The notes: a model not told the origin generated them from the letters alone. DNA of 64,000 bases from the human T2T-CHM13v2.0 reference genome, Homo sapiens (GCF_009914755.1 NC_060931.1); one strand, 5' to 3'. Shown: positions 39,490 through 44,300, counted from the first letter of the stretch. Translations and numbers: made by a program.

Positions 39490-40783
39490 GAGTTTATTGT
39501 AAAAAGCAGCAGCTCTCTGTCTGTCTCCTTTTCACCCCCTCAGTGGTCTCTGTTTGATCAGAGAACAGGGATTTCCAGAGGTGGCACTGTAGGAGGATCC
39601 TGGGAGCACCTGTGTCTCCTGGGGACAAAGGAGGGGGTCTGTGGGCAGCCCTTGGGGGCCATGAGGTTCCTCACAGAAAACACAGAGGTTGGGGGGACCC
39701 ATTTTATTGGGGAGTGACTCTGGGCAGGGGCCCCTTGGGCTTTGTCATCTGTGCTCTCCCCACCCCCACCACTGCCCTGACCTTGATACTGGGGGCTTAG
39801 GGAGCAATTAGACCCCTGGTGTTGGTTCAGGGAGTTGGGTGGTCCAGGGGCTAGGGCTGCCTGGTCCAGCCACCTTTTGCAAGGATGGGTAAAGCTGAGC
39901 CTCCCCAAAGATCTTGATCCCCCACAAGGCCCCCAAACCCTGATAGCAAACTCACACAGCAGAGCCTGTCTATGCTGGCACCGGGCCCTTCTGTTCCTGC
40001 TGTTGTGGGCAGTCAGGCCTGCCTGAGGAGTCGAGAGTGATCAGAAATAACGTGTCCCCTTGGGTCTTTGGGTGCTGGCTTGGCAGAGGCCCCTTTGATG
40101 CTTTCTCTGGGCAGGGATGGGCCATGGCCTTTTGTCACCTCTGTGTCTGGCCAGGGGTGGGGACAAGGACCATAAAGTCTCAGGTGTGAGTGGGCCCTCT
40201 GCCCAGGAGAAGGGCTGGAAACTGGGGACCCCAGGGAAAGCCCTGGACATTTGGCAAGGACCATGTTGAGGCAGGGGATGGGGAAGGTTGGCTGGAAGAG
40301 AGAGGGGCTTCTCGGGGGTGGGAGTGGAGGGTCCTTCACTTGGTCTGGCCTGTTGCCAGCTGCCCCTTCCACGGTTCTGAACTTCTTCCGTGGTCACCCG
40401 CTTCCTGGTGCTTCTTGGCCCCCACCTCTTGTCACCAGTGGTGTGCTCACACCTCTAGCCTCCCTCCCTCCCTCCTGCGCTGCCCCACCCAAAGTGCCTC
40501 TGACTTCCGCTGACAGAGAGGGACCCCGGCTCAGGGCAGTGACTACTCCAGGACTTATAAGGAAGAAGGGTGGACAGGCTGCCCTTCGTTTAACTCCCCG
40601 TGGTCACCACGCGCTACCTGCTCAATGCCATCACCTCACCTCTACCCTGGGACAGGCACTGCTCTTCTTCAAGGCAAAGTTCTCTGGGGTCCTTTTTATA
40701 GCTGATCCCTTCCTGGGAGGCCTTCATTTCTTGGTCCCTCCTGATGAGAGAAGATGGGCAGCCAGGGGCCCGTTCCCCGGGAG

Positions 40784-40853
40784 ATGCTGGTGATCTGGAT
40801 TCTGACGCTGGCTCTCCGGCTCTGTGCGTCCATTACTGCTACACTGACACCGG
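40784..40853 (+). pseudogene. Orphan MUC12-like exon 1 (signal peptide MLVIWILTLALRLCASITATLTP(G))
   Basis: Close to the recalled MUC12 N-terminus MLVIWILTLALRLCASVTTVTP. Perfect CGG|GTGAGT donor. No MUC12 mucin exon follows before MUC3B. Confidence 0.8.
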
Positions 40854-41364
40854 GTGAGTGCTCCTGGGCTGATGCTCCGGGTCCAGTGCTCCCAGGTGGT
40901 CATAGTACACGCCCCTGCCTCAGGCAGCAGGGCTGCAGGTGGCCTCCCCTTTGCATGGCAAGGGGCTGCCACAGGGCTGGAGACCCATGCTCTGACCTCA
41001 TCTTGCCTTGAGGGTGCCGAAGGGGTCACTGTGGAGACCTGTGGGTGCCTGCGGTTGTGCAGGGGATGGTCTGCATACAGCCCCTGGCCGAGGGGCGGCT
41101 GAAATCCACAGCTTCTGCTCTCCAGGCTCCCCCTGGGATGACAAGGGGGCTTTTGTCACATAGACAGTGGTCTCTGCCTGCCCTCATCCTGGGGGCTTTA
41201 TCTGCTGGAGGGATGGGTCTTTCCAAACCTCACGGAGGCACTGCACATGCTGCCAGCCCTGGTCGGAGAGAGGGAGTCCAGAGGGGTGTGTGACAGTATC
41301 GTCTCTTGACTTGGGGGAGCCTCAGGTGCACCTGGGGAATCCCCACCAGTTAAATGGCTGACGG

Positions 41365-44300
41365 GGCTGGGCGCGGTGGCTCATGCCTGTAATCCCAGCA
41401 CTTTGGGAGGCCGAGGCGGGTGGATCACCTGAGGTCGGGAGTTCGAGACCAGCCTGGCCAACATGGTGAAACCCCGTCTCTACTAAAGATACAAAAATTA
41501 GCTGGGCATGGTGTGGCGCCCCTGTAATCCCAGCTACTCAGGAAGCTGAGGCAGGAGAATCACTAGAACATGGGAGGGGGAGGTTGCAGTGAGGCAAGAT
41601 GGCGCCAGTGCACTCCAGTCTTAGGACAAGAGTAAAACACCCTCTAAAAAAAAATGGCCGAGGGGCTGTGGGAAGAGACAGAAGCTCGGGGGTCCTTGCT
41701 CAGCCTGGTCGTGGCTGTGTCTGAGAGATGCCTCTGACCCGCTGATTTCCCTCATACAGAACAGACTTTCTGATTCCTTTCTGGCAGAGGTGGACAGGGA
41801 TGAGGAGAGGCGAGAGAGGGAGACCTTGAGTTGAAGGCTGTGGGGTGGGCAGAAGGGGTGGTGAGGGGGCAGGGGAGCTGGGGTGGTGGTCCTGGAGCCC
41901 TGCAGGACACCTTTGAGGTAACCCACCAGGGAAGTTCCACCATCCTCCCAGCCAGGGACTCAGGCCCTCCGAGGCTGCCTCTGCCCGCCAAGCCTTGACA
42001 GTTGAGACCTCCTTTACCCCACCTGGACATGTTGGGAGAGAGGTACAGGTGGGGAGGAGCTGATGGGAGAGTTTCAAGGGCTGGAGTGATGAACTCTGTG
42101 GATTTGGGGACATTACAAGAGTTTATTAATAACGCATAGATTCCCTTTAAGTTCACGTACAGGAGTGGGAAGCTGTGGGCCTGGATGGGTCTTAGGAGGG
42201 GTCCTCCCCATCCCTGCTCCCAAGGCCTGGCCCAGCAGATCTCTGTAGTCAGATTATTCAAGGAGAGGGTGATGGAGGTGATGACAGCGATGATGAAGGC
42301 CCCAGGAGTCAGCAGGTGGCATTGCCTCTGTGTACCCAGCCATGTGTTAGAGACAGCCCCCAAGCAACCAAAAACCCCCGTCCCTCAGGTGCTTATAATT
42401 GTGTGTCAAAGATAACACAGGTGAATCCCTTAGTGTGCAAAACAGTCAGAAAAGCATCTATCTATGGCCAGTGCAGAGAGCAGGAAGGAGTGAAGCCAGG
42501 CAAGTAGGGCCACTCCGGAGGGCTCTGGAAGGTCTGATTAGATCCAGAGACCCCTGCCTTCCTCTTGCAGAGGGCTCTGCTGTTCACAAAGCCATTTCCC
42601 AGCAGGTAGCTCATATGATTGTCACCAGGCGGACTGTGTAAGGAAGTCAGGGCAGATGAGGATATGGAGGCTCAGAGAGGATGAGTGACTTGTCTGGGGC
42701 AACACAGCAAATAATGAACACGGCCACCACTTGACAGGGGATTTGTGGCCCACGCCCCTCCTCCCCTCTAGAGGACCCCAGTGCTCTGCACCTGCGCCCC
42801 TCCCCCTCTAGAGGATCCCAGTTCTCTGAAAACCATCCCCTGCTCTGGGAATGGATTCTGGGTCCTTGGGGAGCAGTTCAGATGTCAGATCAGTGACTAC
42901 CAGTGGCATCTGTAGCTTTTTTTTTTTTTTTTTTTTTTTTGAGGCAGAGTATTGCTCTTTTGCTCAGCAGGCTGGAGTGCAGTGGCGGGATCTCAGCTCA
43001 CTGCCACCTCCACCTCCCGGGGTCAAGCAATCCTGCCTCAGCCTCCCAGGCAGTGGGGATGACAGGCACCTGCCACTACGCCCAGCTAATTTTTGTAATT
43101 TTAGTAGAGAGGGGATTTCACCATGTAGGCCAGGCTGGTCTTGAACTCCTGATCTTGTGTTCTGCCCACCTTGGCCTCCCAAAGGGCTGGGATTACAGGC
43201 GTGAGCCACCATGCCCGGTCCTAATTGTTAAAAATTTTTTAATTAAAAAATAAAATATTTTTGCCCAGGCTAGTCTCAAACTCCTGCCCTGAAGTGGCCC
43301 TCCCACCTTGGTCTCCCAAAGTGCTGGGATTATAAGCATGAGTGAGCCACCATGCCTGGCCCATTTTTAATATTAATATGATACCCAGACTATCGGGTCT
43401 CTGTTGACTTCTCCAACTGGGGTGTGGGGGTCTCTGGGCCTTCCCACACCCCAATAAGCTGTGGGTGACCCCAGCTCATCCCAGTGCCACCCAAGATTTG
43501 ATCTTCCCCAGGGAATCTGATTACCAATATCCCAATTCTCTCCCTAGCTCTGTGGAAGTTCAGACAATGCCGTTCTGAATTTGTCTAAGGCCTTTGAGCA
43601 TCTGTTAATATAATACTTCCTTCCTGTACTACTCAACTGCCACCAAACTCAAACGCTGCCTCTCCCTGTACCCTCATCAGCCCAGGTGGAAGGGCCCCGG
43701 AGGCCCTCTCTGTGCCCCTCCAGCCCTAAGCTCCCTCTCGTAGCTCCAGCAGCAGATTGGGCTGTGGCCATTTCTGCCCCAATCCCATCTCATTAACTCT
43801 ACTATAAACTGTTTATTCACCCTGCCTCATCCAGAGCACCTGCTCAAGCAGAGCCAGCCTTTGGTGTTTGCTGAATGCATAAGTTTATTACTCTCTGTAT
43901 AAAATAGCACTCCTTGTAATTGCTTCAATTTTTACATCACTTGAGTTTCAAAGGTTGCCCCTTTGTCTATTGTGAAGCAATCTGTTCTCACCTCTACCAC
44001 TCTCTTCCCAATTTTATAGATGTTAACCATTTCCACCCCCAGCTTCACCTTTCTAAGCTAAAGAGCGCTGACCCCTTCAGACCCCTGGCCCTGCCCCTCC
44101 AGGGCAGACACTTGGTTCCTGTCCCCTAGCTCATCCCCTCCCCAACCCTTACTAGGAACACTGTGCAACTTCATGTACACAAAACAGGATACCGGTTCCA
44201 GTCCCCATTTGGGTCCCTGGCATTTTGCTGGCATTTTCTGGCCTTTGTGCCCTCTGCAGCACTTGGAGAAGGTAGAGTTCTAGACTGTGTCCCTCATCTG

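What the first reader, a model, noticed from the sequence alone, without database searches (positions are those of the whole stretch)
40550..42605. Stranded MUC12 leader between MUC3A and MUC3B is phase-compatible with MUC3B exon 2 (possible chimeric mucin)
Seen: an intact signal-peptide exon (ATG 40784, 23 codons plus 1 nt, perfect GTGAGT donor, TATA-like TTATAA at ~40555 and TTTATA at ~40695) and a 35-nt micro-exon, but no MUC12 body. The next large acceptor on + is MUC3B exon 2 (50705), which is also phase 1. Knowledge: both peptides match the MUC12 N-terminus as recalled, and MUC12 normally lies directly downstream of a MUC3 gene. Inference: the tandem duplication copied MUC3 plus the MUC12 promoter and 5' exons. 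Splicing 40853->50705 gives in-frame [31 protein letters not shown]..., which is MUC3B under a MUC12-type promoter and signal peptide. Including the micro-exon (ends phase 0) would shift the frame and could act as a poison-exon switch.
Basis: partly seen in the sequence, partly recalled or inferred. Interest (0 to 1): 0.8.

Follow-up and report, generated by a model that had tools for sequence, protein, structure and literature searches.

The report
Leftover MUC12 gene start before MUC3B
Between the two human MUC3 mucin genes lies an old, cut-off copy of the start of the neighbouring MUC12 gene, which could in principle feed into MUC3B but shows no sign of being kept by selection and is most likely a relic.

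Summary
A leader exon (ATG 40784, 23 codons + 1 nt, GTGAGT donor) and a 35-nt micro-exon (42571-42605) lie 1.2 kb behind MUC3A. Leader->50705 is in frame; with the micro-exon it is not. A search of the whole CHM13 assembly finds exactly one other copy, the true MUC12 5' end 58 kb downstream. Identity is 89-100% per segment and 6.0% divergence overall.

The copy holds the MUC12 promoter with its TATA box, exon 1, intron 1, exon 2 and 0.3 kb of intron 2. Next comes an Alu, then 4 kb of MUC12 intron 2 in inverted orientation. MUC3B's own 1.2-kb upstream homology follows.

Nothing suggests constraint. Promoter plus exon 1 are more diverged than the flanks. Two new upstream ATGs sit in the 5'UTR equivalent. 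Neutral simulation keeps such exons intact in about half of runs. The micro-exon acceptor is stronger than the MUC3B exon 2 acceptor, so default splicing would be out of frame.

Published MUC3A/MUC12 "fusion" transcripts exist but do not resolve the junction. Verdict: truncated MUC12 paralogue, probably a relic; the chimera is possible but unproven.

The parts
39509..40725 (+). Copy of the MUC3-to-MUC12 spacer and MUC12 promoter region. It has a 13-bp deletion and a cluster of 8 mismatches in 20 bp relative to true MUC12 within -250..-59.
   Evidence: aligned to window-equivalent 97583-98807. Identity is 93.1% (distal), 93.2% (-500..-250) and 89.1% (-250..-59).
40693..40701 (+). TATA-like box TTTTTATAG. 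TATA lies at -29..-26 from the position equivalent to RefSeq's MUC12 transcription start (40726). It is identical in true MUC12.
   Evidence: MUC12 start 98808 from the hub table, mapped to 40726 by the alignment.
40726..40853 (+). MUC12-like leader exon: a 58-nt 5'UTR equivalent plus 70 nt of coding sequence (signal peptide). New upstream ATGs lie at 40744 (out of frame) and 40754 (in frame, adds MGSQGPVPRE). Donor is CGG|GTGAGT.
   Evidence: Against true exon 1 there are 4 substitutions (2 synonymous, 2 replacement) and one 3-nt insertion. The first 38 coding bases are identical to true MUC12.
40854..42570 (+). Copy of MUC12 intron 1, with a sense Alu at 41361-41654. True MUC12 has about 700 bp more, Alu-like, here.
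   Evidence: 94.7% (5' part) and 96.5% (3' part) identity.
42571..42605 (+). 35-nt micro-exon, a copy of MUC12 exon 2. Read after the leader it encodes (E)GSAVHKAISQQ and ends in phase 0.
   Evidence: 35 of 35 identical to true MUC12. Acceptor pyrimidine fraction 0.88; donor CAG|GTAGCT scores 7 of 9.
42606..42912 (+). First about 0.3 kb of MUC12 intron 2, where the direct homology ends.
   Evidence: 90.6% identity, then a drop to about 69% inside the Alu at 42913-43232.
42913..43232 (.). Alu at the first rearrangement breakpoint.
   Evidence: its best matches are generic Alus at about 80%, with no orthologous partner.
43233..47244 (-). Inverted copy of MUC12 intron 2 sequence (window-equivalent 105373 back to 101762). 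It carries an extra Alu at about 46319-46659 and ends in an Alu.
   Evidence: 43233-46318 matches 105373-102332 on the minus strand at 87.3%; 46660-47244 matches 102333-101762 on the minus strand at 82.5%.
47243..48427 (+). MUC3B upstream region, homologous to MUC3A upstream 12554-13626. This is the proximal edge of the duplicated unit.
   Evidence: 47243-50770 aligns to 12554-15999 at 83.1% over 3619 columns.
48428..48578 (+). Canonical MUC3B exon 1 (RefSeq LOC124906647 exon 1). It has no acceptor, so it would be skipped by any upstream-initiated transcript.
   Evidence: Hub table. Three cryptic acceptors upstream of its donor were tested, and none gave an open frame.
50705..50730 (+). Start of MUC3B exon 2 (phase-1 acceptor), the proposed target of the leader donor.
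   Evidence: Lang & Pelaseyed Table S6 gives an N-terminal length of 2187 bp from ATG 48518, which places the exon 2 start at 50705.

Best explanation
This is a truncated, unprocessed paralogue of the 5' end of MUC12. An ancestral tandem duplication made MUC3A and MUC3B. The duplicated unit ran from about 1.1 kb upstream of MUC3 to a point inside MUC12 intron 2. The first copy therefore ends with the MUC12 promoter, exon 1, intron 1, the 35-nt exon 2 and part of intron 2. That tail was later, or in the same complex event, inverted between Alu elements, which cut the two exons off from any MUC12 body. (Shown: paralogy, extent, inversion, intact signals.)

The fragment has since drifted like its non-coding flanks. 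(Shown: divergence.)

Most likely (inferred) it is a relic. It is either silent or a weak colon-type TATA promoter whose transcripts follow the MUC12 pattern, leader to micro-exon. Such transcripts would then end in the Alu-rich spacer or join MUC3B exon 2 out of frame and be degraded. The in-frame leader->MUC3B exon 2 RNA would be at most a minor micro-exon-skipping by-product. It would change only the signal peptide and about 7 residues of the mature N-terminus.

My split: silent relic about 0.35; transcribed but unproductive about 0.3; any detectable leader-MUC3B junction about 0.3; a productive, biologically meaningful chimera about 0.1.
For: Paralogy and extent:
- Only two genomic copies exist.
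- Colinear homology runs 34157-39175, 39022-41654 and 41449-43210 to the MUC3B-3'/MUC12-5' region. It then switches to the minus strand for 43233-46318 and 46660-47244.
- MUC3B upstream homology to MUC3A starts at 47243.
- Breakpoints lie in Alus.
- MUC12 has 4 N-terminal exons and a PTS exon that opens only at window-equivalent about 119.75 kb, so exons 5-15 are absent from the copy.

No constraint:
- Divergence is 186 of 3091 sites (6.0%) over 39509-42912, against 46 of 567 (8.1%) for promoter plus exon 1.
- The lowest identity, 89.1% with a 13-bp indel, falls in the proximal promoter.
- Micro-exon identity of 35/35 sits in an intron stretch that is itself 96.5% identical.
- There are two new upstream ATGs in 58 nt where true MUC12 has none.
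- In a neutral simulation the leader stays intact in 65% and the micro-exon in 75% of 20,000 runs at 3% per-lineage change.

Default splicing is unproductive:
- The micro-exon acceptor has a pyrimidine fraction of 0.88, against 0.65 for MUC3B exon 2. Its sequence and immediate flanks equal those used in MUC12.
- Inclusion gives a stop 11 codons into exon 2.
- There are 8 AATAAA and 2 ATTAAA hexamers on the + strand in the 9.85-kb would-be intron.

Annotation: RefSeq's CHM13 annotation has no transcript model or functional element at 40.5-42.6 kb (hub table).
Against: - The core promoter (-75..+30, with TATA), the ATG, the hydrophobic core of the signal peptide and all four splice signals are intact. 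The one indel in the exon is 3 nt, so in frame.
- The leader donor (8 of 9 consensus positions) scores higher than 7 and ties with 3 of the 11 MUC3A donors; only one (9 of 9) beats it.
- The fragment sits in the same orientation 7.6 kb upstream of a gene that is active in the same tissue.
- Only 1.2 kb of MUC3-type upstream sequence was duplicated for MUC3B, so MUC12-derived sequence could matter for its regulation.
- RNAs joining MUC3A-type and MUC12-type exons are reported. One is a 'MUC12-MUC3A' fusion in 20 of 37 rectal cancers. The others are two long-read 'MUC3A_MUC12' isoforms in gut biopsies. All were mapped to references that, as far as I recall, lack this copy and MUC3B, and I could not see their junctions.
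- RefSeq's models of MUC3B on CHM13 are themselves broken into two genes, so the lack of a model is weak evidence.
Confidence: 0.65

Rival explanations
1. The fragment is a working alternative promoter and first exon of MUC3B. Transcripts start near 40726, skip the micro-exon and MUC3B exon 1, and join 40853 to 50705. They encode MUC3B with a MUC12-type signal peptide under MUC12-type (distal gut) control.
For: - The junction is in frame and stays open.
- The TATA box and donor are intact.
- MUC3B exon 1 has no acceptor, and the three cryptic acceptors tested give no open frame, so direct joining to exon 2 is the only productive path.
- Micro-exons are often skipped (general knowledge, recalled).
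- MUC3A/MUC12 'fusion' RNAs are recurrent in rectal tumours, 20 of 37.
Against: - There is no excess conservation, and two new upstream ATGs have arisen.
- The micro-exon acceptor is stronger than the target acceptor.
- There is no RefSeq model (hub table).
- The fusion name gives no orientation: 12 of the 13 fusion names in that section are in alphabetical order.
- The long-read isoforms were mapped colinearly on GRCh38, that is MUC3-type exons before MUC12-type exons, which is the opposite order.
- The fall in MUC3B exon 1 reads in colon and rectum in Lang & Pelaseyed Table S4 is shared by MUC3A and by MUC17.
Confidence: 0.12
2. The fragment serves MUC3A rather than MUC3B. Read-through MUC3A transcripts splice from an internal MUC3A donor into the strong micro-exon acceptor at 42571 and end nearby. 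This would give the 'MUC3A_MUC12' isoforms seen by long-read sequencing.
For: - Two polyadenylated isoforms with exons of both genes are reported, of 1613 nt with 4 exons and 1101 nt with 9 exons. They are expressed in colon and ileum.
- The micro-exon acceptor is strong, with a pyrimidine fraction of 0.88.
- The micro-exon is 35/35 identical to true MUC12 exon 2, so the two origins cannot be told apart on GRCh38.
- The fragment lies 3.1 kb behind the MUC3A poly(A) site.
Against: - The same isoforms can equally come from MUC3B reading into true MUC12, which has the same spacing and signals.
- I saw no exon coordinates.
- No strong poly(A) context lies directly behind the micro-exon; the first AATAAA or ATTAAA is at 43242-43249, in an Alu tail.
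Confidence: 0.12
3. The fragment acts only as DNA. The duplicated MUC12 promoter works as an enhancer-like element for MUC3A and/or MUC3B in intestinal epithelium, and its exons are irrelevant.
For: - Position between two co-expressed genes.
- A conserved block from about -75 to +30, including a CAAAG-containing element that resembles a nuclear-receptor half-site pair (recalled motif, not scanned).
- Only 1.2 kb of native upstream sequence was duplicated for MUC3B.
Against: - No RefSeq functional element is listed here, although several are listed around MUC3A (hub table).
- The proximal promoter is the most diverged segment.
- No chromatin data could be consulted.
Confidence: 0.1
4. Assembly artefact: the MUC12-like exons are a mis-join of true MUC12 sequence in this repeat-rich region.
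For: The region was unresolved in GRCh38.
Against: - The copy differs from true MUC12 at 6% of sites and by many indels. It has its own Alu content and an inversion.
- Independent long reads of another genome gave a MUC3A-MUC3B spacer of about 10.9 kb, and Catarrhini average 11.8 kb, against 10.2 kb here.
Confidence: 0.01

Closest known systems
True MUC12 5' end (promoter, exon 1, intron 1, exon 2) at window-equivalent 98.6-101.4 kb
   Same: Same order of parts and the same distance behind a MUC3 3' end (1231 against 1228 bp to the start site). Same TATA box 30 bp before the start-equivalent. Exon 1 is 63 of 67 aligned bases identical and exon 2 is 35 of 35. Splice signals are nearly the same.
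   Different: The copy has no exons 3-15. It has a 3-nt insertion and two residue changes behind the signal peptide (ITATLTP against VTTVTP). Its donor is CGG|GT instead of CAG|GT. It has two new upstream ATGs and a 13-bp promoter deletion, lacks about 700 bp of intron 1, and its intron 2 breaks into an inverted piece.
Truncated unprocessed duplicates left by segmental duplication, some of which form chimeric genes with a neighbour (for example CHRFAM7A and the SRGAP2 partial copies; recalled, not checked here)
   Same: Partial copy of a gene's 5' end with its promoter, placed head-to-tail before another gene by a tandem or segmental duplication. Retained exons are intact. The phase is compatible with the next gene.
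   Different: For those examples transcripts and products are documented. Here no transcript could be assigned to the copy, and sequence evolution looks neutral.
Alternative first exons / upstream alternative promoters
   Same: A first exon with a donor only, upstream of the canonical first exon, able to join the common second exon in frame.
   Different: Promoter use is not shown. An intervening micro-exon with a stronger acceptor would break the frame.
Poison exons (stop-introducing cassette exons coupled to mRNA decay)
   Same: Inclusion of the 35-nt exon shifts the frame and gives a stop 11 codons into a non-terminal exon.
   Different: Known poison exons are typically highly conserved and regulated (recalled). 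This one is a by-product of duplication. Its identity to MUC12 exon 2 is no higher than expected from the 96.5% identical surrounding intron.

Membership tests
MUC12 paralogous fragment (product of the MUC3A/MUC3B duplication) | Significant nucleotide homology to the MUC12 promoter, exon 1, intron 1 and exon 2, in the same order | tested here: met
   E=0, 89-100% identity per segment, colinear from 39022 to about 42912.
MUC12 paralogous fragment (product of the MUC3A/MUC3B duplication) | Same position relative to a MUC3 gene as true MUC12 | tested here: met
   MUC3A end 39508 to start-equivalent 40726 is 1.2 kb. MUC3B end 97580-97582 to MUC12 start 98808 is 1.2 kb (hub table).
Functional MUC12 gene | PTS (mucin) exon, SEA domain, transmembrane and tail exons downstream on the same strand | tested here: not met
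   Homology to MUC12 stops at window-equivalent 105373 and is inverted from 101762 on. The true PTS frame opens only at about 119.75 kb. MUC12 has 15 exons.
Disabled pseudogene | Frameshift, stop, lost ATG or lost splice site within the retained exons | tested here: not met
   None found in either retained exon. It is a pseudogene only in the sense of truncation.
Alternative first exon of MUC3B / chimeric mucin transcript | Frame-compatible donor and acceptor | tested here: met
   40853->50705 is open. Compatibility is expected, since both leaders end in phase 1.
Alternative first exon of MUC3B / chimeric mucin transcript | Transcription start at the fragment and observed splice junction to MUC3B exon 2 | not testable with these tools
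   No RNA or chromatin data are on hand. The literature leads do not resolve junction or origin.
Alternative first exon of MUC3B / chimeric mucin transcript | Selective constraint on leader and promoter | tested here: not met
   8.1% divergence against a 6.0% regional mean; two new upstream ATGs. The test is limited to one paralogue pair in one genome.
Poison exon | Inclusion introduces a premature stop upstream of further exon junctions | tested here: met
   stop 11 codons into exon 2 of a 12-exon gene (exon count).
Poison exon | Regulated inclusion and conservation beyond the neutral level | tested here: inconclusive
   35/35 identity against 96.5% in the adjacent intron. By my own arithmetic from the identity, about 1.2 mismatches would be expected, with roughly a 0.3 chance of none. 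Regulation is not testable here.

The most novel reading that the evidence does not exclude
The captured MUC12 promoter and leader are the main drivers of MUC3B in colon and rectum. Micro-exon skipping gives a MUC12-leader::MUC3B mRNA, so MUC3B follows the distal-gut pattern of MUC12 rather than the small-intestinal pattern of MUC3A. The 'MUC12-MUC3A' fusion reported as the most recurrent one in early-onset rectal cancer would then be this normal germline-encoded transcript, mis-read on a reference that lacks the copy and MUC3B.
Probability: 0.1. Interest if true: 0.65.

Novelty: new member of a known kind. Interest (0 to 1): 0.3.

Why it matters
The fragment explains the anatomy of the MUC3A-MUC3B spacer and fixes both edges of the duplication that created MUC3B.

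It is also a practical trap. Its exon 2 is identical to MUC12 exon 2 and its exon 1 is 94% identical to MUC12 exon 1. On references that lack it, reads, CAGE tags and variants from it will be booked to MUC12, and any RNA linking it to a MUC3 gene will look like a gene fusion.

If the chimera were real, MUC3B would have a second, MUC12-type promoter. That would bear on the regional expression of membrane mucins and on reading disease-associated variants at 7q22.

I found no mention of the fragment in the papers I could search and read (searches).

Tried and rejected
1. Table S4 of Lang & Pelaseyed. Reads on canonical MUC3B exon 1 fall from 336 and 257 in ileum to 1, 10, 16 and 8 in colon and rectum, while PTS and unique C-terminal reads stay similar. 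At first this looked like support for another first exon. I rejected it as specific evidence because MUC3A falls in the same way (346 and 362 against 3, 16, 7 and 18). So does the MUC17 N-term/C-term ratio (693/6208 and 1141/9055 against 0/233, 14/408, 8/444 and 2/329). Reads were aligned only to the exons of the four genes with MAPQ>=20, so reads from the copy would have been counted as MUC12.

2. 'MUC12-MUC3A' fusion, 20 of 37 rectal cancers. The order would fit leader->MUC3B, but 12 of the 13 fusion names in that section are alphabetical. One well-known fusion is also written in reverse of its usual name (recalled). The order is therefore uninformative.

3. Long-read 'MUC3A_MUC12' isoforms. 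Only length and exon number are given, with no coordinates, so the origin stays ambiguous.

4. Locating MUC12 exons 3 and 4, to see whether the inverted piece carries one. A scan for open AG..GT exon pairs summing to 348 nt gave 0 pairs from 89 candidate exons, and phase-0 acceptor candidates at the PTS exon were weak. This is left open.

5. Internalised MUC3B exon 1 through cryptic acceptors (48338, 48457, 48499). None of 6 combinations is open.

6. Searches with no hits: the signal-peptide string (0 papers), LOC124906647, joined gene names. 'MUC12 promoter' gave 1 paper, which I did not read. Passages from the pangenome preprint, two T2T papers, a 2026 review, a Gorham-Stout case report and TOGA2 said nothing on the fragment.

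
Full report
**Observation**

The stretch was read directly and the frames were computed.
- The ATG is at 40784.
- The leader has 23 codons (MLVIWILTLALRLCASITATLTP) plus one G, ending at 40853. The donor is CGG|GTGAGT.
- TTATAA is at 40555-40560 and TTTATA at 40695-40700.
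- A 35-nt micro-exon lies at 42571-42605, with a strong polypyrimidine acceptor and a GTAGCT donor.
- The phase-1 acceptor of the large MUC3B exon is at 50705.
- Joining 40853 to 50705 gives an open frame ([31 protein letters not shown]...).
- Adding the micro-exon gives a stop 11 codons into that exon.

**What it is**

The whole CHM13 assembly could be searched. The 2056-nt stretch has exactly one other non-Alu match. That match lies at the position the hub table gives for MUC12 (window-equivalent 98.6-101.4 kb) and has 90% identity. The other 62 of 65 listed matches cover only the Alu in the middle.

I fetched 40 kb there and compared it with window 34000-51000.

| Window | Window-equivalent partner | Strand | Identity | Content |
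|---|---|---|---|---|
| 34157-39175 | 92001-97131 | + | 93.7% | MUC3A 3' against MUC3B 3' |
| 39022-41654 | 97108-99738 | + | 90.6% | spacer, promoter, exon 1, intron 1 |
| 41449-43210 | 100208-102038 | + | 85.0% | intron 1, exon 2, start of intron 2 |
| 43233-46318 | 105373-102332 | - | 87.3% | inverted MUC12 intron 2 |
| 46660-47244 | 102333-101762 | - | 82.5% | inverted MUC12 intron 2 |

From 47243 on, the sequence is homologous to the region upstream of MUC3A (12554 onward, 83.1%). All three junctions fall in Alu elements.

The layout is therefore: MUC3A, then the MUC12 promoter, exon 1, intron 1, exon 2 and 0.3 kb of intron 2. An Alu follows, then 4 kb of MUC12 intron 2 inverted, then 1.2 kb of MUC3-type upstream sequence, and then MUC3B.

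True MUC12 has 15 exons. Four of them are N-terminal and encode 150 residues (Table S6 of Lang & Pelaseyed 2022, PMC9578598). Its long mucin frame opens only at window-equivalent 119.75 kb. The copy therefore holds exons 1 and 2 only. I could not place exons 3 and 4. If either lies within the inverted piece, it is on the wrong strand.

The same table fixes MUC3B exon 2 at 50705: ATG 48518 plus an N-terminal length of 2187 bp. So the RefSeq genes LOC124906647 and 'MUC3B' on CHM13 are two pieces of one gene.

**Comparison with true MUC12**

| Segment | Identity without gaps |
|---|---|
| MUC3 3'UTR | 96.8% |
| Spacer | 93.1% |
| Promoter -500..-250 | 93.2% |
| Promoter -250..-59 | 89.1% (13-bp indel, plus 8 mismatches within 20 bp) |
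| 5'UTR equivalent | 93.1% |
| Exon 1 coding part | 94.0% |
| Intron 1 | 94.7% and 96.5% |
| Exon 2 | 100% (35/35) |
| Start of intron 2 | 90.6% |

- True exon 1 encodes MLVIWILTLALRLCASVTTVTP plus one G, with donor CAG|GTGAGT.
- The copy has four substitutions (two synonymous, two replacement) and one 3-nt insertion.
- The first 38 coding bases are unchanged. All changes lie at or behind the Cys-Ala-Ser that probably ends the signal peptide (small residues at -3 and -1; rule recalled, no predictor was run).
- The TATA-like box TTTTTATAG is identical in both. It lies about 30 bp before the position that corresponds to RefSeq's MUC12 start (98808, which maps to 40726).
- In the 58-nt 5'UTR equivalent the copy has two ATGs that true MUC12 lacks. 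One is at 40744 (out of frame, weak context). The other is at 40754 (in frame, purine at -3 and G at +4) and would add MGSQGPVPRE before the signal peptide.

**Is it kept by selection?**

- Over 39509-42912, without the Alu, the two copies differ at 186 of 3091 aligned sites (6.0%; Jukes-Cantor 6.3%).
- Promoter plus exon 1 (40284-40853) differ at 46 of 567 sites (8.1%). This is more than the surroundings, not less.
- A 150-nt sliding profile shows no identity peak at the promoter or leader. The high values lie in the MUC3 terminal exon (3 mismatches in 900 nt, 38000-38899) and in parts of intron 1. That pattern points to gene conversion rather than constraint on the exons.
- In a simple neutral simulation starting from the true MUC12 exons, the leader keeps its ATG, open frame, phase and GT in 65% of 20,000 runs at 3% change per lineage, and in 40% at 6.5%. 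The micro-exon stays intact in 75% and 54%.
- 'Intact' therefore has little evidential value.
- The amount of divergence fits the statement of Lang & Pelaseyed that all Catarrhini examined carry MUC3A and MUC3B. The rate assumption behind this is recalled.

**Would the chimera be made?**

In favour on sequence grounds:
- The leader donor matches 8 of 9 consensus positions. That is higher than 7 of the 11 MUC3A donors and equal to 3; only one (9 of 9) is stronger.
- MUC3B exon 1 has no acceptor.
- Three cryptic acceptors before its donor give no open frame, in 0 of 6 combinations.

Against:
- The first acceptor after the leader belongs to the micro-exon. Its pyrimidine fraction is 0.88, against 0.65 for the MUC3B exon 2 acceptor. 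Its sequence and close flanks are those of the exon that MUC12 includes.
- Inclusion breaks the frame.
- The 9.85-kb would-be intron holds ten Alu-rich stretches and 8 AATAAA plus 2 ATTAAA hexamers on the + strand.
- Phase compatibility is expected. The MUC3 and MUC12 leaders both end in phase 1 (61 and 67 coding nt), and chance alone would give one in three.
- If made, the in-frame product would differ from normal MUC3B only in the signal peptide and about seven residues. Its meaning would be regulatory, not a new protein.

One oddity: from the weak ATG at 40744, the micro-exon-containing RNA is open into MUC3B, but without a signal peptide.

**Literature**

Lang & Pelaseyed 2022 describe MUC3B and give spacer lengths, but they do not mention a MUC12-like fragment. 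I read Results and Methods in full, term searches over the whole text, Tables S4 and S6, and term searches in all nine supplements. 'Pseudogene' and 'chimer' occur 0 times. The mucin pangenome preprint (passages; it excluded MUC3B), two papers citing T2T, and a 2026 review (passages) do not mention it either.

Three leads were followed.
1. Table S4 shows a collapse of MUC3B exon 1 reads in colon and rectum. MUC3A and MUC17 show the same collapse, so it is not specific.
2. A bioRxiv preprint (10.1101/2024.04.09.588655; Methods and one Results section read) lists 'MUC12-MUC3A' as the most recurrent fusion in early-onset rectal cancer, in 20 of 37 samples. However, 12 of the 13 fusion names in that section are alphabetical, so the order says nothing. 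The breakpoints are in a closed supplement.
3. A targeted long-read study of gut biopsies (PMC11945306; passages and supplementary table searched) reports two 'MUC3A_MUC12' isoforms, of 1613 nt with 4 exons and 1101 nt with 9 exons. It leaves their origin open. As I read it, mapping was colinear on GRCh38, so they run from MUC3-type to MUC12-type exons. On the complete genome that could be MUC3B into true MUC12, or MUC3A into this fragment's micro-exon.

These reports show that RNAs linking the two gene types exist. None shows the leader->MUC3B exon 2 junction.

**Verdict**

The fragment is a truncated MUC12 5' paralogue that evolves like its flanks.

My estimates:
- About 0.65 that it is a relic, either silent or giving unproductive RNA.
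- About 0.3 that any leader-MUC3B junction is detectable.
- About 0.1 that a productive chimera matters biologically.

It is a new instance of a known kind of thing. Its immediate value is for annotation and for avoiding mis-assignment of reads and 'fusions' at 7q22.

What stays open is entirely a matter of RNA and chromatin data mapped to the complete genome, and of the orthologous fragment in other catarrhines. None of these could be consulted here.

Noticed in passing
window 38000-38899 against window-equivalent 95954-96853: The last coding part and the start of the 3'UTR of MUC3A and MUC3B differ at only 3 of 900 positions, while the flanks differ by 4-11%. This suggests recent gene conversion between the two genes' 3' ends. 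It makes short reads there unassignable.
   Followed up: partly
window 48428-74466 plus outside 93415-97580: RefSeq on CHM13 splits MUC3B into 'LOC124906647 mucin-17-like' and a short 'MUC3B'. The exon 2 start (50705), the stop (window-equivalent 96277) and the lengths in Table S6 of PMC9578598 fit one gene of 12 exons.
   Followed up: partly
window 48449 against 13649: The start codon RefSeq predicts for LOC124906647 (48449) lies 23 codons before the MUC3A-equivalent ATG (48518). It exists only in MUC3B, where a C-to-T change and a 7-nt deletion create it and bring it into frame. Lang & Pelaseyed use the downstream ATG (21-residue N-terminal exon).
   Followed up: partly
window 15934-31806: RefSeq draws MUC3A exon 2 as three pieces (15934-22392, 29468-29469, 29472-31806). 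This is a side effect of aligning a shorter GRCh38-based mRNA. The span equals the single 15,873-bp exon reported for CHM13.
   Followed up: no
window 42913-47446: The fragment has a duplication-then-inversion layout with Alu elements at all three junctions (42913-43232, 46948-47244, 47243-47446). An extra Alu sits inside the inverted piece (about 46319-46659). I did not work out whether this was one complex event or two successive ones.
   Followed up: partly
window 40744 + 42571-42605 + 50705: From the new out-of-frame upstream ATG at 40744, the micro-exon-containing chimera is open into MUC3B exon 2 over the 200 codons tested. Its acidic N-terminus has no signal peptide. Probably meaningless, but it is the only frame in which micro-exon inclusion is open.
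   Followed up: no
window 38323-40784 against window-equivalent 96277-98866: The stop-to-ATG distance is 2460 bp from MUC3A to the fragment and 2588 bp from MUC3B to true MUC12. The difference comes mainly from a 132-column gap in the 3'UTR alignment. The 2469-bp 'MUC3B-MUC12' spacer measured from noisy long reads in PMC9578598 is closer to the former. Some of those reads may have come from MUC3A plus the fragment.
   Followed up: no
PMC9578598 Table S4, sheet A: In the six gut samples, reads on the N-terminal exons of MUC3A, MUC3B and MUC17 fall far more from ileum to colon and rectum than reads on their C-terminal exons. MUC12 N-terminal reads do not fall (146 and 215; 207 and 431; 462 and 707). 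This could be a library effect, or short 5' transcripts from MUC12 or its copy. Unexplained.
   Followed up: partly
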